Positions 1-35,509 of a stretch of DNA of 64,000 nucleotides are shown here, one piece after another. Each line of letters starts with the position of its first letter. Positions within the stretch are counted from its first letter, which is position 1. The stretch lies in the IMG/VR virus record IMGVR_UViG_3300027822_000294; one strand, 5' to 3'. The stretch comes from a virus. The position numbers were made by a program, and so were the translations under genes. Under the pieces are notes generated by a model that was not told where the DNA came from, ran no database searches, and worked only from the letters and a program-made list of their open reading frames with translations.

Positions 1-968
1 TCTCAGGTAAATTTGTCAAAGATACAACTGTTGATAGTTGGTTGTCTTTTGCATTAAAACAAACGACTGCAAAACACGCTCTTTCTATTGTTAAATCTCA
101 ACGTAAAAAGAAGAAAAAAACTAAACCTACATTTAATAAATTAATAATGGAACTTGATTCAAGAGTTGTTAAAATTACACAAGATATAAATTCTTTTGAT
201 ATTTGGATTAAACTTTCAAATATTAGTAACATACTTGACAATAAATTTGGTAAAAGATTTAGTCTTAATTTACCTTCTAAGAAACATTTTCATTTCAATA
301 AATTTCTTGAAGATGGTTGGTTAATTAAAAAGTCAATTAGATTAAGAATAACTGAAAAGAGTTACTTTGTAGATATAATTTTTGAAAAGAAAGCTCCTAT
401 AATAAAAATTAAAGGTAAACAAAAAGCTATAGATATAGGATATAAAAAATTGATTGTAAGTTCTAGTGGTGAATTTATAGGTGATAATAAAATTTATGAA
501 AAAATATCAAGAAAGAAACAAGGAAGTAAAGCATTTAAAAGAGCATTGATAGAAAGAAATGAGTTAGTTAATATTTCTTGTAAGGCTTTAGATTTAACAA
601 ATGTTAAAGAACTTTTTGCAGAAGATTTAAAAAATGTTAAACATAAATCCAAAGGTAAAATACATAAAAAGTTTAATCATCAACTTCAACGGTGGGTGTA
701 TCCAAAAGTTTTGCAGAAGCTCGCTATGTTGTGTGAAGAGGAAGGAATTTTATTTAAGAAAATTCCACCTCAATATACAAGTCAAAGATGTAGTTGTTGC
801 GGAGAGATACATAAAAAAAGCAGAAAGAATGAGCTTTTTAAGTGTATCTCTTGTAATTTTGAGAGTGATGCGGATTATAATGCTTCACTCAATATTTTAC
901 ACATGGGACGATATGGTGTCCATGCTTTACAGCCTATTCTATGAACTAGCATAGGATAAAGCAACCAT
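1..968 (+). mobile_element. tnpB-only IS200/IS605-superfamily element, right end near 968
   Basis: Similarity among the three copies continues past the stop through a hairpin (CTATG-aactag-CATAG) to GCAACCAT, then stops. Confidence 0.7.
3..944 (+). CDS. tnpB: TnpB-family RNA-guided nuclease, 5'-truncated by the window edge (copy 1)
   Basis: Frame is open from position 3 (SGKFVKDTTVDSW...). RuvC D (AIDIGYK), E (AEDLKNV) and D (DADYNAS) plus CSCC...CISC zinc ribbon. Closely similar to 17533..18609. Confidence 0.9.
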   Translation, partial: SGKFVKDTTVDSWLSFALKQTTAKHALSIVKSQRKKKKKTKPTFNKLIMELDSRVVKITQDINSFDIWIKLSNISNILDNKFGKRFSLNLPSKKHFHFNKFLEDGWLIKKSIRLRITEKSYFVDIIFEKKAPIIKIKGKQKAIDIGYKKLIVSSSGEFIGDNKIYEKISRKKQGSKAFKRALIERNELVNISCKALDLTNVKELFAEDLKNVKHKSKGKIHKKFNHQLQRWVYPKVLQKLAMLCEEEGILFKKIPPQYTSQRCSCCGEIHKKSRKNELFKCISCNFESDADYNASLNILHMGRYGVHALQPIL

Positions 969-1751
969 TGGCATTGTTACAAAAATTAAATATTCATGTG
1001 AGCCTATAAATTCAACTAATTTTCCATTTTTATCATATCTATTAAAATCAAGAGATATAACACCAAATCCCTTTTTCTGTGTTTCAAACTTAAATATAAA
1101 AAATTTACAACCTACAATATCCGTTGGAGTATTATTATCCATACCTGAAAACAGTATATGTTGATTTATAAACCCACTAGTTATGCTATCTTCCCCTATC
1201 TCCCATTTATAATATTGATAATCTGGTACTAATGGCAAAGATTTTGTTATTGTAAATTCACTTTCTGCAAATTTATGATGTATAAAATCAGCCTTAAATA
1301 CTTGAATATAATGTACTTTTGACATAGCACAAGATGTATAAAATAATTTATTAAAATCCCCACAAGCTACAATATAATCGCCTATATATATTTTATCTTC
1401 TGTCTTTTCTCCATTATCATCTATTATTTGAATATATCTTCTATTCATTCCGTCTATATCAATAAAACCTTGTTCACCTAGTAATACAAAAAATGGCTCT
1501 AAACTTGATTGTACATATAATCCAATTCCCGGAGTTTTATGTACACCTAATTCTATAACTTCTCCAGCTATAACCCCCGAAGTATTTACATATTTATCTG
1601 GATTACCAACAACATCTTTTATATCAACTTCTCTTGTATAAGGATTATTTTCTTTTTCTTTTAAAAATTCGATATGTCTCTCCGCAAATCTTTTTTGTGA
1701 TAATCCTAAAAAACTTACACTTTGCTCTAAAAATTCTTTTATACTTTTCAT
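939..1751 (-). CDS. Hypothetical late protein, possible OB-fold segment and T4 internal-protein-like N-terminus
   Basis: 270 aa ORF with SD (GAGGTG). TATAAATA at 1776-1783. Starts MKSIKEFLEQ. Confidence 0.6.
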   Translation of the reverse strand: MKSIKEFLEQSVSFLGLSQKRFAERHIEFLKEKENNPYTREVDIKDVVGNPDKYVNTSGVIAGEVIELGVHKTPGIGLYVQSSLEPFFVLLGEQGFIDIDGMNRRYIQIIDDNGEKTEDKIYIGDYIVACGDFNKLFYTSCAMSKVHYIQVFKADFIHHKFAESEFTITKSLPLVPDYQYYKWEIGEDSITSGFINQHILFSGMDNNTPTDIVGCKFFIFKFETQKKGFGVISLDFNRYDKNGKLVEFIGSHEYLIFVTMPMVALSYASS

Positions 1752-1755
1752 TATT

Positions 1756-2202
1756 TCACCTCTCTATATTATTTTTATTTATATTATCGATTATCAATTT
1801 TCCCTGAGTGTGGTCAAATTCATGTTGAAACACCCTTGCTTTTGTATTAGATAATTTTTTTATATGTTCTTTTCCATTTTCATCTATATATTTAATTTTA
1901 ATTACAGTAAATCTTTTTTTATTATGGCAAGTGAAATAGGGAATACTTACACAACACTCATCTGCTACATTTTGTTCTTTACTATATTCTATAATCTCAG
2001 GATTGATAAAAGTTTTGTTTTTAATTACAAACATTGAATATAAATAGCCTATCTGGTTGGCTGTTAAGCCTAGCCAGTCATTATCTTTGCAAAAATTTTT
2101 CATTGTGTTTAAAACTCGGAAATGACTATTTGTGATAGTGTCTATCTTTTTTGTTTTTTGCATAAGTATCGGGTCGGGATACAATTTAATTGTTAAAAAC
2201 AT
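1756..2202 (-). CDS. def: Peptide deformylase
   Basis: Motifs GLTANQIG, ECCVSIP (EGCLS-like) and QHEFDH. Confidence 0.92.
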   Translation of the reverse strand: MFLTIKLYPDPILMQKTKKIDTITNSHFRVLNTMKNFCKDNDWLGLTANQIGYLYSMFVIKNKTFINPEIIEYSKEQNVADECCVSIPYFTCHNKKRFTVIKIKYIDENGKEHIKKLSNTKARVFQHEFDHTQGKLIIDNINKNNIER

Positions 2203-2227
2203 TATAAAACACCTTTTTATTATTATT

Positions 2228-2276
2228 CTATTTAAAACTACCCTATTTTAAAACTACCCTATTTTAAAATTATCCC
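2228..2276. repeat. About 16-bp tandem repeat x3 (CTATTTTAAAACTACC)
   Basis: ctatttaaaactacc / ctattttaaaactacc / ctattttaaaattatcc read directly. Confidence 0.85.
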
Positions 2277-2292
2277 ACAATAAAATCTAACG

Positions 2293-3495
2293 GTTGGTAC
2301 TCCACAAGACTATAATCTTGTGGCATTTGCTTGGTTATCCAAGCATTCTTTTTCTTGCTTCATTGACGTTCCTAACAGAACATCTCCACAAGCGTTAATT
2401 CCGCTATACCCTAGCGTATTTATACCTTGTTCTTTTATGTTAATACTAGAATTTAGGTCTCTATCCATTTTTAAACCACAATCAGGACAATTAAAAGTTC
2501 TCTTGCTTAAAGGCATATCTTGAATACAACCACATCTTGAACAAGTTTTTGAACTTGGAAAGAATCTATCAATTTTAATATAGTGTTTAAAACCCCACAA
2601 ACACTTATATTTAAGTTGTCTGTTAAACTCAAACCATGAAACATCACTTATAGCTTTAGCAAGACAGTGATTTTTTAACATCCCTACAACATTCAAATCT
2701 TCTACCACAATTCCGTCATAGTTCTTGGCTATCGAGCTAGATGTTTTGTGTAGAAAATCCATACGACTGTCTCTTATTTTGTTATGTACTTTTCTTACTT
2801 TTAATCTCTGCTTAAAGTTGTTTTTCCCTCCCTTTTTCTTTTTACTTAAACTTCTTTGTTCTTTTGTTAATTTATCTTTATATTTATTAGTAATTTTAGG
2901 ATTGTTTATTACTGTTTCATCTGATAATGTGGCAAACTCTTTTATTCCAACATCACAACCAACTATATTTTTATTTTTCTTCTTCTTTTCTTTAATTTCA
3001 TACTCGCATAAAACAGAACAATACCATTTATTACCATCTTGAGATACAGTAATAGATTTAGGTTTTCCTCTCAAAGACCTGCTTTTCTTCCATTTAACTT
3101 CTCCAACTTTAGGGATATAAATAAAACCTTTTCCTAATCTCCATGCTTGAGGACTGGTAAAACTATCATTTAATTTAAGTTTCTTTTTAAACTTTGGAAA
3201 ACCTTTCTTTTTTCTGAATGAGTCTTTTAATGCTTTATCAAATTGTCTAACAACTACAACTAAAGATTGTGAATGAGATATTTTAAGGAAAGGATATTCT
3301 TCTTTAAGTTCAGGTAAAGACATTGCTAATTCATACCAAAACTTAAACTTACCTGTTTCTTTATAATAATCCTGATTTAACTTTAATACATAATTCCATA
3401 AAAATCTAGTATTCCCTCCACATTGAAGTAAAACTTTTTCTTGTTCTTTAGTAGGTAAAATTTTATATTTAAAACCTTTTTGAATTAACATTTAT
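2293..3495 (-). mobile_element. tnpB-only IS605-like element with right-end hairpin
   Basis: 8-bp stem CCACAAGA/TCTTGTGG at 2302-2323 followed by GTACCAAC on the - strand. tnpB starts 4 nt after the gp13 stop. Confidence 0.7.
2310..3491 (-). CDS. tnpB: IS605 OrfB-type TnpB nuclease (second family)
   Basis: N-terminal HTH (KGFKYKILPT..Q), GCDVGIK, VEDLNV, KTCSRCG..CPDCG..DRDLNSSINI. Confidence 0.93.
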   Translation of the reverse strand: MLIQKGFKYKILPTKEQEKVLLQCGGNTRFLWNYVLKLNQDYYKETGKFKFWYELAMSLPELKEEYPFLKISHSQSLVVVVRQFDKALKDSFRKKKGFPKFKKKLKLNDSFTSPQAWRLGKGFIYIPKVGEVKWKKSRSLRGKPKSITVSQDGNKWYCSVLCEYEIKEKKKKNKNIVGCDVGIKEFATLSDETVINNPKITNKYKDKLTKEQRSLSKKKKGGKNNFKQRLKVRKVHNKIRDSRMDFLHKTSSSIAKNYDGIVVEDLNVVGMLKNHCLAKAISDVSWFEFNRQLKYKCLWGFKHYIKIDRFFPSSKTCSRCGCIQDMPLSKRTFNCPDCGLKMDRDLNSSINIKEQGINTLGYSGINACGDVLLGTSMKQEKECLDNQANATRL

Positions 3496-4254
3496 TTACC
3501 CTACGAGAAAATCCAATGGAAATTGATATTTTGTATTTAGCTCCTCGTCAAGTTTTTCAATTTCTTCCTGCGATTCGCTTATCAATCGCTCTGTATTCAA
3601 TTCAGCATCACCCGGCAATGGCAAATTAAATTTTGATAAATTTTCACCCCATTGTTTCTTTATTAAAGCTGTAGCGTATCTCTTTAATGTTATATCATCC
3701 CATAGTTGAGGCGTATTCTCTACATCTAACAATTTAAAACATTCTATAAATATCATTTTATCCTTTACATTTAAAATTTCACTCCAATTTATATCAATAA
3801 ATAATTTATCCGTATATTTTTCCCACCTTATAGGTATATGTTCTGTTGTTGAAAAAACCTCATCAAGTAATCTTAAATGTTGCTTCTTCATTACATAATA
3901 ACTAATATTTGAAAGTGAACCCATACCGCTAAAAGCCACATTAAAATTTAAGTGGTAGTTTATATTGAATATTGAGTCTATGTGTTGTGTTGAGTCTATA
4001 TAGACCTTTAATATAGCTTGTATTTCTCCATGTGTATTGTCCAACAAGATATATTTATTTTTTATATCCTTTTCTGTAAGTTTATAACAAAGATACGTTC
4101 TCGTTGAAAAATCAAAATGTCTCTCTTGAATTATCTGTAACGCTTCATCTACTCTATCTTGAATTTGCTCTGTAGCAACATTTATTTCTATAACAGGGTC
4201 GCCAAGTTTTTTAAGACAGTAGGATATAAGCTCTTTTCTTGATTTAATTCTCAT
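3496..4254 (-). CDS. gp13: Neck protein gp13-like
   Basis: N-terminus RKELISYCLKKLGDPVIEINV..EQIQDRVDEALQ and C-terminal KKQWGENLSKF..LPG, typical of T4-like gp13. Late promoter at 4277-4284. Confidence 0.85.
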   Translation of the reverse strand: MRIKSRKELISYCLKKLGDPVIEINVATEQIQDRVDEALQIIQERHFDFSTRTYLCYKLTEKDIKNKYILLDNTHGEIQAILKVYIDSTQHIDSIFNINYHLNFNVAFSGMGSLSNISYYVMKKQHLRLLDEVFSTTEHIPIRWEKYTDKLFIDINWSEILNVKDKMIFIECFKLLDVENTPQLWDDITLKRYATALIKKQWGENLSKFNLPLPGDAELNTERLISESQEEIEKLDEELNTKYQFPLDFLVG

Positions 4255-4259
4255 CTGTT

Positions 4260-4817
4260 TTACCTATTTTTATCTTTATTTATAAAATAATGGCATAATG
4301 CGTAACTATCCACCAAATCAGATATAGGATTTTTGTCAACATTTAATGTATCAAAAATCTTGCTTAAATCTATGCCAGTCTTTTCTGTGAAAGCGACATA
4401 CATTGCAAACTTTGTAGCATTTCCCTTTCCTGTAAACGCTTTCTTACAAGAACTCGGTGGAACAATATCCATATCTATATTTTCTTTGTATATTTTCTGT
4501 TTAAGAGCCTGTGTATTTTCTGCTATATTAAAGCTCATAGACTGATTTATAGAACCATAAGAATAGCCCTCTAATACGCAATAGCAAGGTTTATATCTAT
4601 TTATAATGTCTATAGCCCACGTTGAAATTATATCGTATTTTCTTGTTGAATGTTTTGTGTCAACCTTCATTTCTTTAAATATAGAATACCCAAAAATTTT
4701 ATCCTTCCATATCCAATCTGTGTATTTCTTTTGATGAGATAAAAAATAAAACTTTTCACCCATATTGATACATATAGCTGGTGATGTTATAGAGTAATCG
4801 ACTCCGATAATATTCAT
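4260..4817 (-). CDS. RuvC-like Holliday junction resolvase
   Basis: IIGVDYSITSP, LEGYSYGS, KKAFTGKGNATK, DLVDSY acidic tetrad. Confidence 0.8.
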   Translation of the reverse strand: MNIIGVDYSITSPAICINMGEKFYFLSHQKKYTDWIWKDKIFGYSIFKEMKVDTKHSTRKYDIISTWAIDIINRYKPCYCVLEGYSYGSINQSMSFNIAENTQALKQKIYKENIDMDIVPPSSCKKAFTGKGNATKFAMYVAFTEKTGIDLSKIFDTLNVDKNPISDLVDSYALCHYFINKDKNR

Positions 4818-4826
4818 TTAATCTAT

Positions 4827-5918: not shown

Positions 5919-5941
5919 AATAAACTCTTTATCCCGTTCTG

Positions 5942-6346: not shown

Positions 6347-6373
6347 TTTTTATATCTTCCTTATTATTTCTTT

Positions 6374-6541
6374 TTAATTAAACTTGCGAGAGTAGTATCG
6401 CAAAAAATCATCATCATCTATAAAAAACTTATTTTCTTCAATATCATCTAAAATCGCATCATCACTATAATTGATATTTACTAAAGTTTTCTTTAATGTA
6501 TCTAAATTTTGATATTCAAGTTTATTATAAAAATATGCCAT
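6374..6541 (-). CDS. Small hypothetical protein (likely start MAYFYNK at 6541)
   Basis: A G8 tract serves as SD 9 nt before the ATG. TATAAATA at 6600-6607. Confidence 0.45.
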   Translation of the reverse strand: MAYFYNKLEYQNLDTLKKTLVNINYSDDAILDDIEENKFFIDDDDFLRYYSRKFN

Positions 6542-7699: not shown

Positions 7700-7733
7700 T
7701 ATTATATACTATCATACTTTTTTTTGTTGTCAA
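7700..7733 (-). promoter_or_regulatory. Early (sigma70-type) promoter
   Basis: TTGACA-N16-TAGTATATAATATAAGAT, a near duplicate of the 7111-7146 promoter. Confidence 0.7.
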
Positions 7734-7747
7734 GTCTTTTTTAAAAT

Positions 7748-8761
7748 TTATTTTATTAAATGTTCAGCAATTTGTATAGCGTTCAAAGCTCCGCCCTTTA
7801 TAAGTTGGTCTCCGACCACCCAAAATGATAACCCTTTCTTTGTGGATAAATCTTTCCGTATCCTCCCCACATAGCAATTTTCTTTTCCAGCTACAAACAA
7901 TGGAGTAGGATATTCTGAATATTTTACTGTGTCATCTAGCAAAGTAATTCCCGGAGAATTTTTAAATATTTCCCTTGCCAGTTTTGGTGAAATTTTCTTC
8001 TTAGTTTCTATGGTTATTGACTCTGAATGTGCTGTTAGCACAGGTACTCTAACACAAGTCGCATTAACCGTAATATTTTCATCACCTAAAATTTTCCTTG
8101 TTTCATTAAACATTTTCATTTCTTCTTTTGTATATCCATTGTTCTTAAAATCATCAATTTGTGGAATTACATTAAATAATAATTGATGTTGAAAATATTT
8201 CCTACCAAAAGATACCCCCTCCGCATATTTTTTCGTTTGTGTTATAAGTTCAGCTAAACCCTTTTCGCCTGCTCCAGATGAAGCCTGATAGGTTGACACA
8301 ATAACTCTTTTTATTCTACTATAATCATACAAAGGTTTTAAGGCTACCAACATTATTATAGTGGTACAATTAGGATTTGCAATAATCCCCTTTGTATGTG
8401 TAAATATTTTTTCAGGATTAACTTCGGATATAATTAAAGGTACATCTTCATCCAACCTAAAAGCACTGGAATTGTCAATCACTATAGCACCAGAATTAAC
8501 TGCCTTATGAGCGTAATATTTACTGATAGTCGCTCCTGCGGAAAAAAATGCTAAATCTATATTTTTAAAACTATCCTTTTCTATAGATTTTACTTCATAT
8601 TCTTTACCACAATAAACAAGTTTTCTACCGATAGATTTTGGCGAAGCAAAAAGTGTTAATCCATCAACAGGGAAATTACGTTTTTCTAATAATGTTAAAA
8701 ATGTTTTGCCTACCGCTCCTGTTGCTCCAACAATAGCAAGATTTATTTTTGGTCTTCTCAT
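7748..8761 (-). CDS. asd: Aspartate-semialdehyde dehydrogenase
   Basis: GATGAVG, DNSSAFR, ANPNCTT (catalytic Cys), QASSGAG, CVRVPV..HSE, KGGALNAIQI. Confidence 0.95.
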   Translation of the reverse strand: MRRPKINLAIVGATGAVGKTFLTLLEKRNFPVDGLTLFASPKSIGRKLVYCGKEYEVKSIEKDSFKNIDLAFFSAGATISKYYAHKAVNSGAIVIDNSSAFRLDEDVPLIISEVNPEKIFTHTKGIIANPNCTTIIMLVALKPLYDYSRIKRVIVSTYQASSGAGEKGLAELITQTKKYAEGVSFGRKYFQHQLLFNVIPQIDDFKNNGYTKEEMKMFNETRKILGDENITVNATCVRVPVLTAHSESITIETKKKISPKLAREIFKNSPGITLLDDTVKYSEYPTPLFVAGKENCYVGRIRKDLSTKKGLSFWVVGDQLIKGGALNAIQIAEHLIK

Positions 8762-13780: not shown

Positions 13781-16375
13781 CTATCTTTTTAAAAATGTCA
13801 ACTGATTTTTGTTAAGGTGTTTGTTCATCATTATTAAATCCAACCCCAACACTTTTCCTATCATATCAATTTGTTCTACGAAAGTTTTTTCAAATTCTGT
13901 GTCATAGTCAATATAATTTATTAACTCAAACTCTTTGGGTATTTTTGAATGAAAAGCAATAACATTCATGTTCCAAATATTGGGTTTTAAATATACCATT
14001 TTTATCTTATCACCTTCTTTAATTTTATCGTATTTATTTTCAATTTTATAGTAATCTATTAAATGATTATAAAATAAAGCACCTTTTATATGAAATCCGC
14101 TCCCCTTTCTATATATCGTATTTTTATCTGAATATTTTTTTAAGTGATTGATTGATTTTGCCCTGCTTATTTCATTATGTGGAAGTTTTTTAAAAATAGT
14201 TTTAGTCTCTTTTATATATTTTTTTAAATCTATCTTTATATTGTCAATATTATCTTCTTCCGATAAAAAATATTCTTTTATGACATTTATTATTCTTTCT
14301 TTACAAAATGGTGGTATCCAAGAACTAATGGCAGATATACCTACCATTTTTAATTTCTTTTCTCTTATACCTTCATCATCAACAATAGATAATATATATC
14401 TTTTCTTTGCTAAAAATATCCCCTTATCTGCGATAACTTCTCTTTTCATTACAATTCTATTTTCATAACTATTTAATTTTATAGCAATTTTTTTAGCGTC
14501 CTGAACAATTATTTTTTGTATCTCTGGTGAAACTTTTTTATCTAAAAAATTTATAATCTTTTCTTTACCCTTTAACTTTAATTTTTCTATAAATTCATCA
14601 AATCTAACATAAATTGAGTCTGTGTCCATAGCAACAATATAATCTTCTTTTTCTTTATTTAGAATAGTTTTAATATAATTATTTACACTATTTTCTATGC
14701 TCTTTATTATATATTGCCCGGTAGATGTTACGCTTTCAGCAAGTTTAATATTAAAGAATTTAAACCATATACAACCTAAAGCTCCGTACAAAGAATTTAA
14801 TTGTATTTTTTTAATATGTTGATAGCTGGAATAATAATCCGCTCTAATTTTATATTTTTCTAATTTAGTATCAATATATTTTTTATTATTATCTTTACTC
14901 AATCTTTTACATCTTTGACGTTCTTTATAAATTTCCTTTATTAACGTTGGAAGTATTCCACAAGTTTCTTTTGTATATTCAACAGAATTAAGAGTAAATG
15001 TAACATTTTTTTCTTTTAGATATTCATTTCTTGTTTTTATTTCTTCTTCGCTTTCATTTTCAATATCATTCGGGTTTATTATTTTACTATATTCTTGTGG
15101 ACAATATGTCTCAAACGAAATATTTTGCTGGACAATTATATTAGGATAAAGTGAGTCAATATCAAACGCCATTATCCATAAATATTTGTTGGGGATAACT
15201 TCTTTGACATAAGCACCAATATATTCACTGTCTTCATTATTAGTATATGTATTATATAACATTACTAATTTATGTTTTTTATAATATTTGAATATAATCT
15301 GTTCCCACATCTTTGTTGGGAGTAATACATTATCGTAAGGCATAACAGCGTCATAAATTAAATGTAGTACCATATCCATAAATTTTAATTTTTTATCTAA
15401 TTTATTAACCAAAGCAACATCTTGAATATTATATTTAACATATAAATCATAATTTTCTTCGTATAAGTTATTTAAACTGAGATAATCATTACTATATTCA
15501 ATCTTTCCTTCGCCCAATTCTATTTGTGAAATACTATCCAAAGAGTATGAAGGTCTATTTTTAAATATATATTTTTTATATATAGATAAATAATCAAATA
15601 TTGTAACACCTGCTATTGTATAATATTTTGTAATTTGTTTTGTTCCAAATACATATTGGGATTTTGTATGTTCTTTAATAACTCCCCAAGAACTTAGCCC
15701 TAACCATAAATTTTTATATGCTGTAGAAAATTTAAAAACTCTTTTCATCCGGTTAATTAAGTATGTTATATCAAAATCTCCAACATTCCATCCAGTTACA
15801 ATATCTACGTTTAAAGATTGCCATACTTCAATAAATTTTTTTAATAATTCTTTTTCATCTTTACAAAAAATATAAGTGGTATCTTCTTCAATAGATTTAT
15901 CCTGTATGGGTCTCAATCCAAGTGTTATAAATTTTTCATCATCACCTTTATATAAATTGCCTAGCGTGATAAGACATAATGGAGCGAGTGCGTCTTCCGG
16001 TTTAGGAAAACCATCTTGCGATACAACTTCTATATCTATATTGATTATATTAAGACAAGGTTTAATTTTTTCTACATCAAATTTTGTTTCAGCGTAATTA
16101 TCTGCTAACCAACATGACCTAAAATCTTTATTCCCATACAACTTATAATTAGAAATATCTTGATATTTCTTAACATAAGCATAATAATCATAAATTGATG
16201 TGAATGTATGTTTTTTTAATTTGTGTTTTGTGATAGGCTCATAATAAAAACCTTCGTTATCTTCCATAAAAATTGATGGTTCATATTTAACCTTTGTATA
16301 TACATCTTTATTATTTTTATATTCTTTAGTTAATAAATAATTTTTTTCTAAAAAAACATTTTTATAAAACTTCAT
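13781..16375 (-). CDS. gp43: Family B DNA polymerase gp43
   Basis: IDIEV exonuclease motif, DIDSLYP, KIQLNSLYG, DTDSIY. SD GGAGGTG favours a start at 16375. Confidence 0.95.
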   Translation of the reverse strand: MKFYKNVFLEKNYLLTKEYKNNKDVYTKVKYEPSIFMEDNEGFYYEPITKHKLKKHTFTSIYDYYAYVKKYQDISNYKLYGNKDFRSCWLADNYAETKFDVEKIKPCLNIINIDIEVVSQDGFPKPEDALAPLCLITLGNLYKGDDEKFITLGLRPIQDKSIEEDTTYIFCKDEKELLKKFIEVWQSLNVDIVTGWNVGDFDITYLINRMKRVFKFSTAYKNLWLGLSSWGVIKEHTKSQYVFGTKQITKYYTIAGVTIFDYLSIYKKYIFKNRPSYSLDSISQIELGEGKIEYSNDYLSLNNLYEENYDLYVKYNIQDVALVNKLDKKLKFMDMVLHLIYDAVMPYDNVLLPTKMWEQIIFKYYKKHKLVMLYNTYTNNEDSEYIGAYVKEVIPNKYLWIMAFDIDSLYPNIIVQQNISFETYCPQEYSKIINPNDIENESEEEIKTRNEYLKEKNVTFTLNSVEYTKETCGILPTLIKEIYKERQRCKRLSKDNNKKYIDTKLEKYKIRADYYSSYQHIKKIQLNSLYGALGCIWFKFFNIKLAESVTSTGQYIIKSIENSVNNYIKTILNKEKEDYIVAMDTDSIYVRFDEFIEKLKLKGKEKIINFLDKKVSPEIQKIIVQDAKKIAIKLNSYENRIVMKREVIADKGIFLAKKRYILSIVDDEGIREKKLKMVGISAISSWIPPFCKERIINVIKEYFLSEEDNIDNIKIDLKKYIKETKTIFKKLPHNEISRAKSINHLKKYSDKNTIYRKGSGFHIKGALFYNHLIDYYKIENKYDKIKEGDKIKMVYLKPNIWNMNVIAFHSKIPKEFELINYIDYDTEFEKTFVEQIDMIGKVLGLDLIMMNKHLNKNQLTFLKR

Positions 16376-16433
16376 AAAACACCTCCCATTCACATAATAA
16401 TATTCTTTTTACGCAACAAGTCAAGTCATAATT

Positions 16434-17024
16434 CTACATCAGTTTTACTTCGTTTTTATTGCCATGTTCCCGATAGCTAATATGAACCCAACTATTGCCT
16501 TTTTTTGGAGTTTCTAAAATAAGTTGATTAAATTTTAAATTAGTTTTACACCATTCAAACAATTCTTTAATATCTACACCTTCAACAACTATATCTGACG
16601 CTCTACCGATAAGATGTTCACTTGTTGAAGTTCCTTCAGCCAATTTATTAACTTTTGGACATCTATATCCAGAAGTTATATAAACTGGTTTATCAAAATT
16701 TTCTCTAATAGGGTCTAAACAATGTTCTGTTAATAACATTATATTTTCTATAACAGATTGATTTTTTGTTTTATTATCAATATTATGTGTTATAGCTATT
16801 TTTGACCTAAAAAATTCATATAATTTAAAATGTTTACCAACTTTAATCTTAAAAAAATCCTCATCATTATTTTTAATAGACTGTTGCTCTCCTTTAGTTA
16901 CAACCTTTCTATTCACTAAAAACATTATAAAATCATCAATAAAAAGATTTATTTTAAACACATAAGAAACAAATAATTTCCAATTTGAAAATAATATTAC
17001 AGCTATTTTCTTGTATTCTGACAT
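16434..17024 (-). CDS. Peptidase M15A endolysin-like
   Basis: ITSGYRC..VN, SEHLIGRASDI, WVHIS zinc-peptidase motifs. Confidence 0.85.
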   Translation of the reverse strand: MSEYKKIAVILFSNWKLFVSYVFKINLFIDDFIMFLVNRKVVTKGEQQSIKNNDEDFFKIKVGKHFKLYEFFRSKIAITHNIDNKTKNQSVIENIMLLTEHCLDPIRENFDKPVYITSGYRCPKVNKLAEGTSTSEHLIGRASDIVVEGVDIKELFEWCKTNLKFNQLILETPKKGNSWVHISYREHGNKNEVKLM

Positions 17025-17027
17025 CTT

Positions 17028-17450
17028 TTATCCTCCCATTTTGTTTAAGCTAACACAACACAAAACCATATTTTTAGTTAAAATAGTTTGTTCTACTTCT
17101 TTATTTATAATATAAACAGATAAGGGATTTTCTTTTAAAATATCAGGTTCAAAATATTGTGGTATAACTTCAAGATGATTTGCAAGATATTGATTAACAC
17201 AACTAAATGCTTGTAATATACAATTTTCGGGTATTTTCGTAAACATATATCCAGTAGATATTAGTGCCTTTTCATGTTGTCGTAACATTATAAAATCATT
17301 ATTTACAACATAATTTAATACTCTATTATATTTATCCAACAATAAAATTTTATCATCTAAATTAAAATGAGGATAAAAGTAATAACAATGTTCAGTTGGA
17401 AAAGTTTTAAAATAATCCTTTACACCTACATCAATTTTTGTTATTTCCAT
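17028..17450 (-). CDS. dUTPase-fold-like protein, degenerate (tentative)
   Basis: LRQHEKALISTGYMFTKIPEN resembles the dUTPase L.P.ERALIPTG..F.IP segment. RSG, GxIDxDY and R..GGFGST motifs are absent. Confidence 0.4.
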   Translation of the reverse strand: MEITKIDVGVKDYFKTFPTEHCYYFYPHFNLDDKILLLDKYNRVLNYVVNNDFIMLRQHEKALISTGYMFTKIPENCILQAFSCVNQYLANHLEVIPQYFEPDILKENPLSVYIINKEVEQTILTKNMVLCCVSLNKMGG

Positions 17451-17509
17451 GATTTTTAAACTCCTGTAATTCTTATGTTTTCTGACTTTTTATGATATTT
17501 CCCCAAGTT

Positions 17510-18642
17510 ATGGTTGCCCTTCCTATAAAATTTTATAGAATTGGCTTTTGTAAGGCATGGACATCATATTGTCCCATGTGTAATATATTAAGTGAAGCAT
17601 TATAATCGGCATCACTCTCAAAATTACAAGAAACACAACAAAAAAGCTCATTCTTTCTGCTTTTCTTATGTATCTCTCCACAACAACTACATCTTTGACT
17701 TGTATATTGAGGTGGGATTTTCTTAAATAAAATTCCACTCTCTTCACACAACATAGCGAGCTTTCTCAAACATTGAGAATACACCCACCGTTGAAGTCGA
17801 TTGTTAAACTTTTTATGTATTTTGCCTTTAGATTTATGTTTAACATTTTTTAAATCTTCGACATATAAACTTTTAACATTTATTAAATCTAAACTTTTAC
17901 ATGATAAATTAACTAGCTCATCACGTTCTATTAAAGCACGTTTAAAAGCCTTACTACCTTGTTTCTTTCTTGATATTTTTTCATAAATTTTATTATCACC
18001 TATAAATTCTTTATCTGAACTTACAATCAATTTTTTATATCCTATATCAACAGCTTTTTGTTTACCTTTAGTTTTTATTATGGGAGCTTCTTTTTCAAAA
18101 ATTATATCAGCAAAATAACCTTTTTCATTTATTCTTAATCTAATTGATTTTTTAATTGTCCATCCGTCTTGTAAAAATTTATTAAAATGTATATGCTTTT
18201 TGGATGGTAAATTAAGACTAAATCTTTTACCAAACTTATTATCAATTTTATTACTAACAGTTAAAAGTTTAACCCAAATATCAAAAGAATTTATATCTTG
18301 TGTAATTTTAATAACTCTTGAATCAAGTTCCATTATAAGTTTATTTAATGTAGGTTTAGATTTTTTCTTTTTCTTACGTTGTGGTTTAATAATAGAAAGA
18401 GCATGTTTTGAAGCTGTTTGTTTTAAACAAGCGGATAACCAACTATCAACAGTTGTATCTTTGACAAAACTGCCTGAAAATTGTTGCTGTTCCCAAAGTC
18501 TATCTATAAATATATTAACAACTCTTTGATATTCTTCAGCAATTATCTTTAATTTTTCAAGTTTACCTTTATTAACAAATTTAAGATTTATTGTTGACTT
18601 TCTTATCATCTTTATTAAACCTCTTAATATATTCTATTTATA
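17510..18642 (-). mobile_element. tnpB-only element between regA and the dUTPase-like gene
   Basis: Right end GCAACCAT at 17517-17510. TATAAATA at 18635-18642 on the left side. Confidence 0.7.
17533..18609 (-). CDS. tnpB: TnpB-family nuclease (copy 2, full length)
   Basis: 358 aa. AVDIGYK, VEDLKNV, DADYNAS and zinc ribbon are intact. Confidence 0.92.
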   Translation of the reverse strand: MIRKSTINLKFVNKGKLEKLKIIAEEYQRVVNIFIDRLWEQQQFSGSFVKDTTVDSWLSACLKQTASKHALSIIKPQRKKKKKSKPTLNKLIMELDSRVIKITQDINSFDIWVKLLTVSNKIDNKFGKRFSLNLPSKKHIHFNKFLQDGWTIKKSIRLRINEKGYFADIIFEKEAPIIKTKGKQKAVDIGYKKLIVSSDKEFIGDNKIYEKISRKKQGSKAFKRALIERDELVNLSCKSLDLINVKSLYVEDLKNVKHKSKGKIHKKFNNRLQRWVYSQCLRKLAMLCEESGILFKKIPPQYTSQRCSCCGEIHKKSRKNELFCCVSCNFESDADYNASLNILHMGQYDVHALQKPIL

Positions 18643-18660
18643 AAATAACTCATTTTTATA

Positions 18661-19131
18661 CTACTTATTCTCTACCTTTTTATGATATTTGCCAAGATTA
18701 TATTTCTCTATCAGTTCATAATTATCTTTTTCCTTAAAGGGTATAATATCTATGTTAATTTTTTGTAATTTATCTCCAACTTCTTCTATCTGTTGTTTAT
18801 CTTTCGGTATTAACAACCCCCACTTTTCTAATAATTTTATAATCAACAACTTTCTCATTATATCATACTCTTGAATTTTTACCTCTTTGCCATCTAAACC
18901 AAATAATTCTTTAAAATGGACAATATAATATTTACCACGTTTAAATAAAATATGACAACTCTGATATAATTTCATATTCTTTTTAATTCCCATTCGACTC
19001 AATGTTTCTTTAATCTTTAAAAAGTTTTCGTTTGATGTTAATTCCACTTCACAAAAGGTTTCTGTAATAAGTTTTTCCAAATTAGTTTTCACCAAATTAG
19101 TTTTCCCTTCCAAATTAGTTTTTTGTTCCAT
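18661..19131 (-). CDS. regA: Translational repressor RegA
   Basis: FLKIKETLSRMGI, LYQSCHILFKRGKYYIVHFKELFGLDG. Confidence 0.93.
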   Translation of the reverse strand: MEQKTNLEGKTNLVKTNLEKLITETFCEVELTSNENFLKIKETLSRMGIKKNMKLYQSCHILFKRGKYYIVHFKELFGLDGKEVKIQEYDIMRKLLIIKLLEKWGLLIPKDKQQIEEVGDKLQKINIDIIPFKEKDNYELIEKYNLGKYHKKVENK

Positions 19132-19579
19132 TTTTTCTAATACCTCCCTTATTTTTAAATACCTGAGTATTTACCATTTTTTTTAAATCCTCCTCCCCTA
19201 TTAAATCTTCTACCTCTAAACTTCTTACAAAATTATATCCATAATAATCCACTATTTGTTTAATTTTATCTGTAATTTTCCATTTAAACCATTTTGTTAT
19301 AACTTGTGTACGTCTTTCTAAACAAAAATAATAAAAATCATATTGTTGCTGTGGAGTTAAATTACTATGTTGGTTCATTATATTAGCATACTCACAAGTG
19401 TCATAAAAAAATGAATAATACCTGTTTGTTAAAAAGGGTATATAATTCTCCACCTCTTTATTATGTCCACCAATTTTTTTATTTATATTGTTTAATATAT
19501 CAAAAGGTGAAGCACTTTTTTTTATTGTACCATTTTTTTCATTATCTTTTTTTAATAATGTAGATGATTGAAGTTTCAT
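19115..19579 (-). CDS. gp62: Clamp loader small subunit gp62
   Basis: PFDILNNIN, YIPFLTNR, ANIMN, QYDFY, and synteny with gp44 and regA. Confidence 0.85.
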   Translation of the reverse strand: MKLQSSTLLKKDNEKNGTIKKSASPFDILNNINKKIGGHNKEVENYIPFLTNRYYSFFYDTCEYANIMNQHSNLTPQQQYDFYYFCLERRTQVITKWFKWKITDKIKQIVDYYGYNFVRSLEVEDLIGEEDLKKMVNTQVFKNKGGIRKNGTKN

Positions 19580-20553
19580 TTTTTAAATTTTACCTCCTGA
19601 AATATATTTACTAAACAAGCTATCAAATTTAATGTTTTATCTAATACAAAAGATTGCTTGTATTGATAATCTGCTAACAAAATAAGTAGCGATGGTATAC
19701 TTTCAGTGTCAACAACAGAAAATAATAAATCATATAATTCTGTATATATAGTTTCATAATTATATGGTCTTTCACCTAACAATTTTCTTAATTTATAAAA
19801 ATCACCCCCTTTTACATACTCCACAATTAAAGTTAAATCTGGATTTGTTTTTTTCAACACAGAAAATAAACCAACATCTAATTTATTATCATTAACAATA
19901 CAATATCTCTGAACCTCATTTATGATTTTCCTAAAATCGGGATAAAAATAAAGTATCAGTTTTGCCAGTGCTTTTTTGCCGGTGTCTGTAACTTCTATAT
20001 TTTCTTCATTTAAAATAAAAAGCATCCTCGTAAAAAATGAAAAAGATAATTGGGTTTTTTCATCGTTATCTTCTTTTAAATTAAAATATACAGTTGAACA
20101 CCTTGACCTTAGTGGTTCTATTATTTTATTTTCAAAATTAGCTGTCAAAATAAAACTACTATTTTTTGAATATTGCTCCATAAATGACCTTAAAGCTGGC
20201 TGTGTAGAATTAGCATTTAGATAATCTGCCTCGTCTAAAATTACAATTTTTCTTTTATTATCAAAAGATGTTACAGAACAGAATTTTAATATTTTATCTC
20301 TTATAATATCTATTCCATTTTGTAAACTTCCATTGATAAAAAGATAATTCAAATTTTGTTGCTCTGCCAATATCTTTGCAACTGTTGTTTTTCCTACCCC
20401 TGCTTGACCTGCAAATAAAAGATTTGTGTTGTTATCACTATTTACTATACTCATCAAAGCAGTTTTTAAATACTCAGGAAATATACAATCTTCAACTTTT
20501 TTAGGTCGATATTTTTCCACCCACAATATATCATTTTTTACCATATTTTTCAT
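19576..20553 (-). CDS. gp44: Clamp loader large subunit gp44
   Basis: LWVEKYRP, GQAGVGKTT, ILDEADYL, PLRSRC, YPDFRKIINE. Confidence 0.95.
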   Translation of the reverse strand: MKNMVKNDILWVEKYRPKKVEDCIFPEYLKTALMSIVNSDNNTNLLFAGQAGVGKTTVAKILAEQQNLNYLFINGSLQNGIDIIRDKILKFCSVTSFDNKRKIVILDEADYLNANSTQPALRSFMEQYSKNSSFILTANFENKIIEPLRSRCSTVYFNLKEDNDEKTQLSFSFFTRMLFILNEENIEVTDTGKKALAKLILYFYPDFRKIINEVQRYCIVNDNKLDVGLFSVLKKTNPDLTLIVEYVKGGDFYKLRKLLGERPYNYETIYTELYDLLFSVVDTESIPSLLILLADYQYKQSFVLDKTLNLIACLVNIFQEVKFKK

Positions 20554-28381: not shown

Positions 28382-28404
28382 AATGTACCTCTTTTTTTAT
28401 TCTA

Positions 28405-30298: not shown

Positions 30299-30311
30299 TT
30301 ATTTCCCAACT

Positions 30312-32693: not shown

Positions 32694-32740
32694 ACGGTTA
32701 TTATCTCCTCTATTTATTGTGGTAATTTATTTATAAGAAA

Positions 32741-33061
32741 TTAGTCAGTATTTTTACAAATGAATCCTCTTATCATTTTTAGTTTTGTTATTAAAAATTC
32801 CTTATTTAAAAAACCCAATTCTATTTTTGCTTTTAATTCATCTATCTCATCTTTAAGTTCTCGTAATCTAGGAATATTTTGTTCTATCTTTAACTTTTGT
32901 TTTTCTAATGCTTCTCTGATAGTAAAATCCAACTTTAAATTAACTATTTTATTATATTCATTTTCTTTTTTAAATCTTTTGAATATCATACCTCCTAATG
33001 TATCCTTTATTTGCTCATATTTTTCTAACAGTTTTTCTATTTCTTTTCTAATATCTTCCAT
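32741..33061 (-). CDS. Hypothetical coiled-coil protein
   Basis: SD AAGGAG. TTGACA near 33113-33118 and TATAAATA at 33101-33108. Confidence 0.6.
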   Translation of the reverse strand: MEDIRKEIEKLLEKYEQIKDTLGGMIFKRFKKENEYNKIVNLKLDFTIREALEKQKLKIEQNIPRLRELKDEIDELKAKIELGFLNKEFLITKLKMIRGFICKNTD

Positions 33062-33310
33062 AATTTTATCTCCTTTTTTTATTTTTTACAATATAAACTA
33101 TATTTATATCGTTGTCAACAGAAAATTTTAATTATTTTCACCGAACTTTTATAACGAACTATTCTCCGACCTTTTAGAAAAATCCTAATAACTAATTTCT
33201 AAAACACTATTATAAAAAAACTAATTACATAAAAATAAAACTATAAAACATTATTATAAAATGATAATTTTAGCTGTATATTAATAAAACTATATCCCTT
33301 GTAAAATAAC

Positions 33311-34220
33311 CATTTGCCTCTAATCTTCGTAAAATAGGCTCTTAGAACTCACTTACATCTTAACCTAATAAATCACCTTTATTCAAATCTTCATATCAAA
33401 TTAAAGCTAATTATATCAGAATTAAAGGCAATTTTTAATATCCTTACAACGCAAAATGTTATATTTAACTCAGGATGAAAAATCTTGGACATATTTTGAA
33501 TACATTTACCTCTAATCTTTGTAAAATAGACTCTTAGAACTCACTTACATCTTAACCTAACAAATCACCTTAATAATTATTTAGCTATCAAATTAAAGAC
33601 AATTACGCAAGAATTAAAGGCAATTTTTAATATCGGTTGCCATATTATTCTGCTTATAATATCCCCTTCCGTCATAAAATTATTATTCGCCTTCATAAAA
33701 TAAAAAATTAAATTTTTTTCCCCTTTATTATCAAAAAGTTATAAACAATTTTAAATAAAAATAAAATTTTTTGAAAATTTTTTATAAATAGTATTAAGGG
33801 ATTAAAAACTAAAAATAAAACTTAAAAAACTTAATAAAGAACTTAATAAAAAAACAAGAATAATAAAGCTCAATAAAAAAATATAAAAACAAAAAGATTA
33901 TAAAACAAGAATAAAAAAATTTAATAAAAAAACAAAAATAATAAAGCTCAATAAAAAAATATAATAAAAAAACAAGAATAATAAAGCTCAATAAAAAAAT
34001 ATAATAAAAAAACAAGAATAATAAAGCTCAATAAAAAAATTTAATAAAGAACAGTAATCCATTAAAACAATAACTTTATTTTTGTTTTTGTTTTTTCTTT
34101 TTGGTTCTTTTTCTTTTTTTTCTAATTCCTGTAAAACAAGCTCTTAAAACTCACTTACATCTTAATTTAATAAATCACCTTAATAATTATTCAGCTATCA
34201 AATTAAAGCTAATTATACAA
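33311..34220 (+). repeat. Three dispersed 90-140 bp direct repeats
   Basis: Core GTAAAA.A..CTCTTA.AACTCACTTACATCTTAA..TAA.AAATCACCTT at about 33311-33442, 33503-33643 and 34129-34220. Confidence 0.9.
33844..34042 (+). repeat. 40-bp A-rich tandem repeat x4
   Basis: Unit AATAAAAAAACAAGAATAATAAAGCTCAATAAAAAAATAT. Confidence 0.9.
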
Positions 34221-34286
34221 GGGAATCCCTGCAAAAACGAATATATAAGATATACACTTTAGGGGATTTTTATAAATAAAAATAAG

Positions 34287-35363
34287 ATGATAAGAAAATC
34301 AACATTAAATCTCAAGTTTGCCAATAAAGGTAAACTTAAAAAATTAAAGATAATTGCTGAAGAATATAAAAGAGTTGTCAATATCTTTATAGATAGACTT
34401 TGGAGAGAACAACAGTTTATAGGTAAGTTTGTTAAAGATACAACTGTTGATAGTTGGTTGTCTGCTTGTTTAAAACAAACAGCTTCAAAACAAGCTCTTT
34501 CTATTGTTAAATCTCAACGTAAGAAAAAGAAAAAATCTAAACCTACATTAATAAATTTATTATGGAACTTGATTCAAGAGTTGTTGAAATAACACAACTT
34601 AATGAACATTTTGATATATGGATAAAATTATCTTCTATAAGTAATAAAATTGATAATAAGTTTGGTAAAAGATTTAGTCTTAATTTACCTTCTAAAAAAC
34701 ATATACATTTTAATAAATTTCTTGAAGATGGTTGGTTAATTAAAAAGTCAATTAGGTTAAGAATAAATGAAAAAGGATATTATGTAGATGTATTTTTTGA
34801 AAAAAAAAGCTCCTACATTAAAAATTGAAGGTAAACAAAAAGCTGTTGATATAGGGTACAAGAAATTGATTGTAAGTTCAGATAAAGAATTTATTGGATA
34901 TTTTAAAATATATGAAAAAATATCAAGAAAGAAACAAGGAAGTAAGGCTTTTAAAAGAGCATTGATAGAACGTAACGAACTGGTTAATGTTTCATGTAAG
35001 GCTTTAAATTTAACAAATGTTAAAAAACTTTTTGCAGAAGATTTAAAAAATGTTAAACATAAATCTAAAGGTAAAATACATAAAAAGTTTAATAATCGAC
35101 TTCAACGGTGGAGTTATGTAAAAGTTTTACAGAAGCTCACTATGTTGTGTGAAGAGGAAGGGATTTTATTTAAGAAAGTTCCACCTCAATATACAAGTCA
35201 AAGATGTAGTTGTTGTGGAGAAATACATAAGGAAAGCAGAAAGAATGAGCTTTTTAAGTGTGTTTCTTGTAATTTTGAGAGTGATGCGGATTATAATGCT
35301 TCACTCAATATTTTACATATAGGACAATATGGTGCCTATGCCTTACAAAAGCCAATTCTATAA
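34287..35363 (+). pseudogene. tnpB: TnpB copy 3, broken by two frameshifts
   Basis: 1-nt loss near 34551 and 1-nt gain in the A9 run at 34800-34808 relative to copy 2. TATAAATA at 34271-34278. Right end near 35386. Confidence 0.85.
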
Positions 35364-35509
35364 ATTTTTCTGGAAAAGGTAATCATTTTAATAGATTCTT
35401 CTGTACTATAATGTGTAATCGGTTTTAGAATACTATTTTATATTTGTTAATATATAATTATTATTACCTTTATAATTATGTTTTATTATGAAAAATCTTA
35501 ATAAAAGTG

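What the first reader, a model, noticed from the sequence alone, without database searches (positions are those of the whole stretch)
1..35386. Four transposase-less tnpB genes placed just behind late-promoter (TAAATA) sequences: candidate RNA-guided homing elements
Seen: two TnpB families (3..944, 17533..18609, 34287..35363; and 2310..3491), with no TnpA or serine recombinase in the window. All three visible left flanks carry TAAATA just upstream of the ATG: TTTTATAAATA 25 nt before copy 2, TTTTATAAATA 8 nt before copy 3, and GTAAATA-A-ATG for the IS605-type gene. No left-end hairpin is evident. RuvC D-E-D residues are intact. Known: TATAAATA is the gp55 late promoter, and TnpB cuts TAM plus right-flank-derived guide at the empty allele. 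Inference: these minimal units may spread between co-infecting phages by break-induced gene conversion, like T4 seg/mob homing endonucleases, with a TAM contained in the late promoter. That would give each new insertion late expression automatically. Joining the copy 2 flanks restores TATAAATA directly ahead of the dUTPase-like/endolysin genes.
Basis: partly seen in the sequence, partly recalled or inferred. Interest (0 to 1): 0.85.

Follow-up and report, generated by a model that had tools for sequence, protein, structure and literature searches.

The report
Transposase-less TnpB homing cassettes in phage
A marine T4-like phage carries four RNA-guided nuclease (TnpB) genes that have lost their transposase. 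In the two that can be checked, the guide is a copy of the neighbouring gene's end while the working gene is silently recoded, so they probably act as RNA-guided homing endonucleases between co-infecting phages.

Summary
The four tnpB genes are real: three IS607-type copies and one IS605-type. No transposase is present in the window. One IS607-type copy (34287-35363) is broken by two frameshifts. TATAAATA is a genuine late-promoter motif in this phage (17 gene-upstream hits against 1.3 expected).

The TAM-in-promoter idea fails. The motif lies inside cassette sequence that copy 2, copy 3 and a relative at an unrelated gene all share. For the IS605-type gene, the "TAAATA" is simply the gp13 stop codon.

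The homing idea gains different support. Directly after the right end, where the guide is read, copy 2 carries a duplicate of the last 12 codons of regA. The IS605-type element carries a duplicate of the last 8 codons of gp13. In both cases the working gene upstream differs mainly at synonymous sites next to the junction. Relatives L001, L002, L003 and L132 show the same architecture, but about 12 other transposase-less loci do not.

The TnpB genes are under purifying selection (dN/dS 0.22-0.30), and their guide-RNA scaffolds keep compensatory base pairs.

Best reading: free-standing RNA-guided homing or exclusion cassettes with a recoded, immune resident allele. No empty allele, TAM or RNA data could be obtained.

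This scan has noted phage TnpB homing cassettes before on other DNA. The recoded duplicate is the new element here.

The parts
3..968 (+). IS607-type tnpB copy 1. The 5' end is cut off by the window start and the ORF is open to 944. The omega-RNA scaffold and right end finish at 968, and the guide begins at 969, inside the 3' end of the convergent 270-aa gene (939-1751, minus strand).
   Evidence: Pfam TNB E 7e-19. Alignment of the three copies. Model R1 hit 888-968, 85 bits. The convergent ORF overlaps the right end.
2293..3491 (-). IS605-type tnpB (393 aa, 2310-3491) plus its right end (2293-2309). There is no left end and no tnpA. The ATG lies 4 nt after the gp13 stop codon.
   Evidence: Pfam HTH_OrfB_IS605, OrfB_IS605 and TNB. 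Sequence. Relatives L132 and L133 carry a Y1 tnpA directly upstream. The two terminal hairpins keep compensatory changes.
2270..2292 (-). Guide position of the IS605-type element. With the last base of the right end it reads PLDFIVG-stop, a recoded duplicate of the gp13 C-terminus.
   Evidence: 18 of 24 nt match. Among 128,000 positions in the window, only this site and gp13 itself reach 17 of 24 or more. The amino-acid match starts 2 nt after the right end.
3496..3519 (-). Resident gp13 3' end (PLDFLVG-stop). It is the working, recoded counterpart of 2270-2293.
   Evidence: PHROG head-tail adaptor / Pfam Phage_T4_gp13.
2231..2269 (-). A 16-nt perfect tandem repeat (2.4 copies) directly after the gp13-end remnant. 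Each unit resembles the gp13 stop region.
   Evidence: TRF score 78. Sequence.
17510..18660 (-). IS607-type cassette copy 2. It holds a 51-nt left-end remnant with TATAAATA (18635-18642) and an RBS, an intact tnpB (17533-18609, 358 aa), and an omega-RNA scaffold ending at 17510.
   Evidence: Model R1 hit 17510-17592, 91.7 bits. The 5' block is shared with L001.
17474..17509 (-). Guide position of copy 2 and remnant of an alternative regA 3' end (NLGKYHKKSENI...). It continues into the RBS and ATG of the next gene at 17450.
   Evidence: Amino-acid flank score 55 against a null maximum of 33, at offset 0 from the right end. 26 of 36 nt match, unique in the window.
18664..18699 (-). Resident regA 3' end (NLGKYHKKVENK, then the stop codon at 18661-18663). 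It has 4 synonymous differences from the guide in the first 9 nt.
   Evidence: regA is identified by PHROG translation repressor.
34271..35386 (+). IS607-type copy 3. It has TATAAATA 8 nt before the ATG and the RBS region is deleted. The ORF is broken by two frameshifts. The omega-RNA scaffold is intact to 35386.
   Evidence: Model R1 hit 35304-35386, 84.5 bits. The hairpin keeps an A-U compensated pair.

Best explanation
These are IS607-derived (three copies) and IS605-derived (one copy) TnpB/omega-RNA cassettes. They have lost their transposase and now sit as free-standing RNA-guided nuclease genes in a marine T4-like phage, expressed from late promoters.

Each omega-RNA takes its guide from the DNA just past the right end. 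For copy 2 and the IS605-type element, that DNA is an alternative allele of the 3' end of the gene immediately upstream (regA and gp13). The working gene differs from this allele at synonymous positions next to the junction.

Inferred mechanism: late in a mixed infection, TnpB cuts relatives that carry the guide-matching allele behind a TAM-like flank ending in TAT. T4-type recombinational repair then copies in the recoded gene end plus the cassette, or the rival genome is simply destroyed. The resident genome is immune because of seed mismatches in the working gene and because the remnant lacks a TAM.

Shown here: the anatomy, the loss of TnpA in the window, purifying selection, the conserved RNA scaffold, and the recoded duplicates.

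Inferred only: cleavage, the TAM, homing itself, and how the duplication arose. One possibility is an illegitimate crossover between a resistant intact allele and an insertion allele. Another is pseudo-end recombination by TnpA.
For: - TnpB domains and catalytic residues are present.
- No TnpA is in the window, while most relatives have the serine-recombinase C-terminus directly upstream of the tnpB ATG.
- The omega-RNA hairpins keep compensatory pairs: GC14/CG4/AU2, CG14/GC5/AU1 and AU16/GC3. The IS605-type hairpins do too.
- dN/dS is 0.22-0.30 at dS 0.30-0.43 among copy 1, copy 2 and L001. All TnpA-less members of this clade whose 5' end is visible (copy 2, copy 3, L001) share the same TATAAATA-bearing 5' end.
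- Recoded duplicates start exactly at the right end. Amino-acid flank scores, against a null maximum of 33, are 55 for copy 2 and 158 for L001. The IS605-type element scores 29, inside that null, but the match starts 2 nt after the right end and its stop codon is aligned.
- Both window duplicates are unique matches among 128,000 window positions.
- In L001 all 8 differences in the first 60 nt are synonymous, and 7 of them lie in the first 30 nt.
- The same architecture occurs in L002, L003 and L132.
- TATAAATA is a true promoter motif in this phage.
- TnpA-independent TnpB drive has been shown in plasmids (PMC11870625, cited in PMC13565253).
Against: - No cassette-free allele could be found. 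regA's closest other match in 5.8 billion proteins is 60% identical at most, and the only near relative of the L001 host gene carries the cassette too.
- Logan contigs show no cassette-less joint.
- The TAM is unknown, and the flank (..TAT) differs from the G-rich TAMs reported for most IS607 TnpBs (PMC13565253).
- There are no RNA data.
- Only 64 kb of this phage's contig was read here, and the contigs from other assemblies add almost nothing beyond it, so a TnpA could lie elsewhere in the genome.
- Copy 3 is decaying, and copy 1's left flank is out of view.
- About 12 of 18 TnpA-less relatives, including four solo tnpB genes in the complete genome G001, show no flanking duplicate.
- The gp13 duplicate is only 24 nt long.
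Confidence: 0.55

Rival explanations
1. These are ordinary decaying insertion-sequence remnants. IS607/IS605 elements once transposed into the phage and lost tnpA by deletion, and they are now inert passengers. The flanking duplicates are recombination scars with no function.
For: - Copy 3 is frameshifted and lacks an RBS.
- L003 and L133 also carry broken genes.
- Most TnpA-less relatives have no duplicate.
- An earlier scan note read a similar right-end duplication as a scar (e1-2002566).
Against: - Three of the four ORFs are intact, with dN/dS 0.22-0.30 after dS of 0.3-0.4.
- The RNA scaffold keeps compensatory pairs even in copy 3.
- The cassettes carry a phage late promoter.
- In L001 the first 20 codons of the remnant differ from the working gene only at synonymous sites. 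That pattern suggests two alleles that diverged under coding constraint, not decay of a scar.
Confidence: 0.2
2. These are non-autonomous transposons still moved by a TnpA supplied in trans, from the unseen part of the phage genome, the host, or a co-infecting element. TnpB would then do only the known restorative homing after excision.
For: - Copy 2 keeps a left-end-like 51 nt.
- Relatives L097, L098 and L109 are internal tnpA deletions that retain a full left end with its sigma-70 promoter.
- G001 has one Y1 tnpA for five tnpB genes.
- Only part of the genome is visible.
Against: - The IS605-type element has no left end at all.
- The copies differ by about 13%, unlike a family that is actively transposing.
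- Neither IS607 nor IS605 makes target duplications (PMC13565253), so the 24-99-nt recoded repeats remain unexplained.
- No TnpA is found in the 64-kb window.
Confidence: 0.15
3. The TAM lies within the late promoter TATAAATA, so each new insertion lands behind a late promoter and is automatically expressed late.
For: TTTTATAAATA precedes copies 2 and 3.
Against: - The motif and 36 of the surrounding 39 nt are shared by copy 2 and L001, which sit at unrelated genes, so it travels with the cassette.
- The upstream duplicate ends before the motif, at the regA stop codon.
- For the IS605-type gene, the motif is the gp13 stop codon.
- TnpA-less relatives instead carry sigma-70-type promoters at the same place.
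Confidence: 0.03

Closest known systems
IS607-family elements (serine-recombinase TnpA plus TnpB with a right-end guide RNA)
   Same: The TnpB is 66-77% identical to proteins that have an IS607-type TnpA C-terminus directly upstream. The guide scaffold overlaps the 3' end of tnpB and ends in a conserved terminus.
   Different: There is no tnpA. The terminus is AACTAT/AACCAT, not GG, and the flank is AT-rich rather than G-rich (PMC13565253). There is no Rfam RAGATH-18 match. The promoter is a T4-type late promoter. Long imperfect direct repeats of host-gene sequence flank the element.
IS200/IS605 TnpB (ISDra2, IS608) and 'peel, paste, cut and copy' restorative homing
   Same: The gene 2310-3491 has the full HTH, OrfB_IS605 and TNB architecture. 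Its right-end hairpins match relatives that carry Y1 tnpA.
   Different: The left end and tnpA are entirely missing. Self versus non-self would be told apart partly by substitutions in the neighbouring gene, not only by presence or absence of the element.
Free-standing homing endonucleases of T-even phages (SegF, SegG, MobE: intronless homing and marker exclusion)
   Same: A nuclease gene sits between conserved phage genes. Its predicted target lies in the adjacent gene of cassette-free relatives. The resident allele is protected by sequence differences. Spread would occur by recombinational repair in co-infection (PMC13565253).
   Different: Recognition is by an RNA guide encoded as a fossil copy of the target, not by a protein. 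The resident copy of the gene end is duplicated and recoded.
TnpB-driven gene drive of IS605 among plasmid copies (PMC11870625)
   Same: Spread depends on TnpB and is independent of TnpA, through cutting of element-free homologues.
   Different: That case involves a plasmid population and a complete IS. Here the setting is a lytic phage, the cassettes are truncated, and nothing has been shown experimentally.

Membership tests
IS607 family | TnpB with the RuvC D-E-D triad and a zinc finger | tested here: met
   Pfam TNB. Invariant D188, E251, D335 and CxxC pairs in the alignment.
IS607 family | Adjacent serine-recombinase TnpA | tested here: not met
   None in the window (tblastn E > 0.08). It is present upstream of most relatives.
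IS607 family | Structured right-end guide RNA overlapping the 3' end of tnpB | tested here: met
   Conserved hairpins with compensatory changes. Model R1 finds exactly the three copies. The Rfam family RAGATH-18 is not matched.
IS607 family | Element ends in GG, is inserted after GG, and has no target duplication (PMC13565253) | tested here: not met
   The ends are AACTAT/AACCAT/AATCAT. Copy 2 is flanked by a 36-nt imperfect repeat.
IS200/IS605 family | TnpB with HTH, OrfB_IS605 and TNB domains | tested here: met
   E 8e-16, 3e-28 and 2e-20.
IS200/IS605 family | Y1 TnpA and left- and right-end hairpins | tested here: not met
   There is no Y1 TnpA and no left end, since the ATG is 4 nt after the gp13 stop. 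The right-end hairpins are present.
Free-standing homing endonuclease (intronless homing) | Resident allele differs from the nuclease's target in a neighbouring conserved gene | tested here: met
   There are 4 mismatches in the first 9 guide positions at regA and 6 of 24 at gp13. This is in silico only.
Free-standing homing endonuclease (intronless homing) | Presence/absence polymorphism among related genomes, with the target intact in empty alleles | tested here: inconclusive
   No close relatives exist in INPHARED, IMG/VR or the 5.8-billion-protein set. No empty joint appears in contigs.
Free-standing homing endonuclease (intronless homing) | Cleavage of the empty allele and biased inheritance in co-infection | not testable with these tools
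   This needs biochemistry and a cultured phage-host pair.
TldR-type domesticated (nuclease-dead) TnpB | Inactivated RuvC site | tested here: not met
   The catalytic D/E/D are retained.
IStron | Group I intron at the 5' end of the element | tested here: not met
   No Rfam intron hit. Only 51 nt (copy 2) or 4 nt (IS605-type) lie between the upstream stop codon and the ATG.

The most novel reading that the evidence does not exclude
These cassettes may be an RNA-guided counterpart of T4 seg/mob elements with a regular architecture: recoded gene end, then nuclease, then guide scaffold, then a fossil of the susceptible allele. The unit would carry its own immunity and use the displaced allele as its spacer. 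The duplication would come from a systematic process, such as recombination between the right end and a right-end-like TAT site in the gene, rather than from chance scars. That would make this a distinct class of gene-end-replacing mobile unit, and a natural step from transposon guide to target-derived spacer.
Probability: 0.3. Interest if true: 0.85.

Novelty: new variant of a known kind. Interest (0 to 1): 0.66.

Why it matters
TnpB is known to restore its own transposon after excision and to drive IS605 through plasmid populations. Spread between co-infecting phages is so far only proposed in the literature searched here (PMC13565253).

These loci give a concrete and testable case. The predicted targets can be read directly from the remnants at 17474-17509 and 2270-2292. 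The predicted immune alleles sit a kilobase away in the same genome, so one plasmid-interference experiment can test both cutting and immunity.

If the reading holds, it shows how a transposon nuclease becomes a free-standing homing or exclusion weapon in lytic phages. It also shows how a guide can come to be a stored copy of a competitor's sequence, which bears on the origin of CRISPR-like targeting. Finally, it would explain why solo tnpB genes persist in T4-like marine phages.

Tried and rejected
- Empty-allele search. Megablast of 16000-20000 against phage records found nothing. regA relatives in IMG/VR are at most 57% identical, and other proteins in the 5.8-billion set at most 60%. The only close relative of the L001 host gene (P0121) also carries the cassette. 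gp13 was not found in G001-G003.
- No whole genome is held for this window.
- Rfam gave no family for either guide RNA, at gathering or E-value thresholds, and there are no tRNAs.
- A covariance model of the scaffold found no orphan guide genes in the window.
- Searching the window for second matches to the guides of copies 1 and 3 gave only chance 14-mers. Copy 3 has no convincing flank duplicate.
- Laying Logan contigs showed no cassette-less joint. The odd joints had sides of 40 nt or less, or arose from where I cut the stretch, so I disregarded them.
- The TAM could not be derived. Left-end boundaries of the canonical relatives were not sharp enough, and the IS605-type flanks of the window and L132 disagree.
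- I considered and rejected an IStron (no intron), TldR (active site intact) and an ordinary target-site duplication (the repeats are too long and differ at synonymous sites).


Full report
**What the window is.** The window comes from a T4-like myovirus with 24-30% G+C. It encodes regA, gp62/gp44 clamp loader, gp13, gp46/47-like nucleases, UvsY, terminase, baseplate hub proteins and gp32. Nearly identical DNA occurs in a 2014 marine metagenome run and in three other assemblies. No close relative exists in INPHARED, IMG/VR or the 5.8-billion-protein collection. The best matches to its clamp loader are pelagiphage, Methylophilales-phage and cyanophage proteins at about 40% identity.

**Checking the observation.**
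- The four TnpB genes are real. Three form one family: 3-944 on the plus strand (cut by the window start), 17533-18609 on the minus strand, and 34287-35363 on the plus strand. They are 87-89% identical at the DNA level. The fourth, 2310-3491 on the minus strand, has the full IS605 OrfB architecture.
- Copy 3 is not intact. Two frameshifts split it into three ORFs, and the A-run frameshift is identical in a contig of another assembly, L139.
- TBLASTN with transposases taken from relatives found no tnpA in the window.
- TATAAATA occurs 43 times against 31 expected overall. However, 17 copies lie on the coding strand within 60 nt upstream of a gene start, against 1.3 expected. It therefore behaves as the late promoter of this phage, and it does precede copies 2 and 3.
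- For the IS605-type gene, the reported motif is the gp13 stop codon followed by 4 nt and the ATG. That gene is more likely read from the TATAAATA located 22 nt upstream of gp13.

**What family the elements belong to.**
- A metagenome scan returned 42 relatives of the copy 1-3 family. Most have the C-terminus of a 200-aa IS607-type TnpA ending at the tnpB ATG, and a conserved left end containing a TTGACA-N17-TATAAT promoter.
- Their right ends finish in a conserved GGTAACTAT, after which the flanks diverge. The window copies finish in GGCAACCAT, GCAACCAT and GGTAATCAT at 17510, 968 and 35386.
- The last 80 nt fold into two hairpins with compensatory substitutions across 20 sequences. A covariance model built from them finds exactly the three copies in the window.
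- The IS605-type gene has relatives in two large T4-like contigs. L132 is 71% identical and L133 is 76%, and both have a Y1 tnpA directly upstream. Their right-end hairpins covary with the window's.
- Rfam recognises neither RNA.

**Why the promoter is not the TAM.** Copy 2 and L001 share a block running from TTATTTTATAAATAG to the ATG, identical at 36 of 39 positions. L001 is an 85%-identical TnpB that sits behind a tail-tube-family gene and ahead of a baseplate wedge gene. Copy 3 has the same start of this block with an internal deletion. Other TnpA-less relatives (L097, L098, L109) carry a sigma-70-type promoter at the same place. The promoter is therefore cargo of the cassette, adapted to the phage's late transcription. 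It is not a property of the insertion site.

**The new finding: recoded duplicates at the guide position.**
- *Copy 2.* The 36 nt after the right end (17509-17474) read, in frame, NLGKYHKKSENI. The regA gene just upstream ends NLGKYHKKVENK-stop (18699-18661). The two DNA stretches match at 26 of 36 positions, with four synonymous differences in the first nine.
- *IS605-type element.* The last base of the right end plus the next 23 nt read PLDFIVG-stop, and gp13 ends PLDFLVG-stop. They match at 18 of 24 nt, with five synonymous changes and one conservative change.
- *Statistics.* Among 128,000 positions in the window, each gene end matches only itself and the post-right-end site at that level. 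Cross-locus controls gave a maximum amino-acid score of 33, against 55 for copy 2.
- *L001.* It shows the same pattern on a larger scale: a 99-nt repeat that starts at the right end. All eight differences in the first 60 nt are synonymous, and seven of them lie in the first 30 nt.
- *Other relatives.* L002 has a 26-nt repeat starting at the right end. L003 has a 39-nt repeat of an RBS region. L132 has a 47-nt repeat that abuts both ends of a 5'-truncated tnpA-tnpB unit.
- *Where the upstream copy ends.* In every case it ends where element-derived sequence begins. That point varies: the tnpB ATG, a tnpA remnant, or a left-end remnant.
- *The flank.* The sequence just 5' of the upstream copy ends in (A)TAT in copy 2, L001 and L002, like the right end itself.
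- *Not universal.* About 12 other TnpA-less loci lack any such repeat, including four solo tnpB genes in the complete 181-kb genome that holds L132.

**Interpretation.** A TnpB guide is the 16-20 nt that follows the right end; this is established for ISDra2 and for IS607 TnpBs (PMC13565253). So the copy 2 and IS605-type guides spell an alternative allele of the neighbouring gene's end. The resident gene is mismatched in the TAM-proximal region, and the remnant itself has the right end where a TAM should be.

This matches the logic of T4 intronless homing, where the target lies in a conserved neighbour and the donor allele is immune. The difference is that an RNA guide does the recognition.

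TnpB is under purifying selection among copy 1, copy 2 and L001 (dN/dS 0.22-0.30 at dS 0.30-0.43). Copy 2, copy 3 and L001 also share the TnpA-less, late-promoter 5' end. This argues that the nuclease has been maintained without its transposase.

The 13% divergence between copies in one genome fits old, locus-bound cassettes better than recent transposition.

I cannot show how the duplication arose. Neither IS family makes target duplications. The variable left junction and the allele-like, synonymous differences fit a crossover between a resistant intact allele and an insertion allele. They also fit recombination between the right end and a similar TAT site in the gene. Both remain inferences.

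**Limits.**
- No empty allele was found in any collection searched or in the run's contigs.
- The TAM is not defined, and the flank is not the G-rich kind reported for most IS607 TnpBs.
- No RNA run holds the sequence.
- Only part of the genome is visible, so a trans-acting TnpA cannot be excluded.
- Copy 1's left flank lies outside the window. Its guide lies in the 3' end of the convergent 270-aa gene, whose last 13 codons and stop are now encoded by the element's right end and the first bases of the guide.
- Copy 3 is decaying as a gene, although its RNA scaffold is intact and could in principle be used in trans.

**Relation to what is known.** The 2026 review lists phage-to-phage 'non-restorative' TnpB homing as theoretical and cites plasmid evidence for it (PMC13565253, PMC11870625). 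Earlier notes of this scan describe TnpB homing cassettes in other phages, so the general idea is not new to the scan. What this window adds is the recoded duplicate of the neighbour's gene end at the guide position, seen for two unrelated TnpB lineages in one genome.

I class this as a new variant of a known kind, with interest 0.66 and confidence 0.55 in the homing/exclusion mechanism. I have about 0.9 confidence that the promoter-as-TAM reading is wrong.

Noticed in passing
L086/L130 (ENA ERZ27237539 contig, 34.5 kb) against window 3-968 and 17510-18609: This contig is 100% identical to the window outside tnpB. It joins the regA side of copy 2 to the right flank of copy 1 through a tnpB that switches cleanly from copy-2-like to copy-1-like within a 29-nt identical stretch. 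It is either an inversion isomer of the 16.6-kb segment between the inverted copies or an assembly chimera.
   Followed up: partly
window 33062-34286: A 1.2-kb non-coding region lies between divergent gene blocks. It holds three copies of a ~110-nt repeat (about 33318-33430, 33508-33635 and 34130-34230) and a 40-nt tandem array of 6 copies (33811-34048). There is no Rfam or tRNA hit. It could be an origin, a packaging region or a regulatory region. Copy 3 sits at its edge.
   Followed up: partly
window 2231-2269: A perfect 16-nt tandem repeat (2.4 copies) lies directly after the gp13-end remnant. Each unit resembles the gp13 stop region. Earlier scan notes report similar repeated target sequence at TnpB right ends in other phages.
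   Followed up: partly
L001 and L141 (IMG/VR 3300027822 and ENA ERZ27237539): A further cassette of the same lineage (85% aa identity to copy 2) lies between a tail-tube-family gene and a gp8-like baseplate gene, near gp23. It comes from the same sample as a copy of the window phage and shares no genes with the window. It may be another part of the same genome, which would make it a fifth cassette.
   Followed up: partly
G001 (IMG/VR contig of 180,926 bp holding L132): This phage genome, rated complete by CheckV, carries five tnpB genes of 367-409 aa and only one Y1 tnpA, whose 5' end appears truncated. Solo tnpB genes therefore look common in this group of AT-rich T4-like phages.
   Followed up: partly
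window 37010-37939, 37966-38958, 41809-42744: Three paralogous genes match Pfam EcoRI_methylase and are 82-87% identical in DNA. Two of them sit next to the terminase gene.
   Followed up: no
window 1756-2202 and 7748-8761: Two auxiliary metabolic genes are present: a peptide deformylase and an aspartate-semialdehyde-dehydrogenase-like gene. A sigma-70-like promoter (TTGACA-N17-TATATAAT) lies at about 7700-7735 on the minus strand.
   Followed up: no
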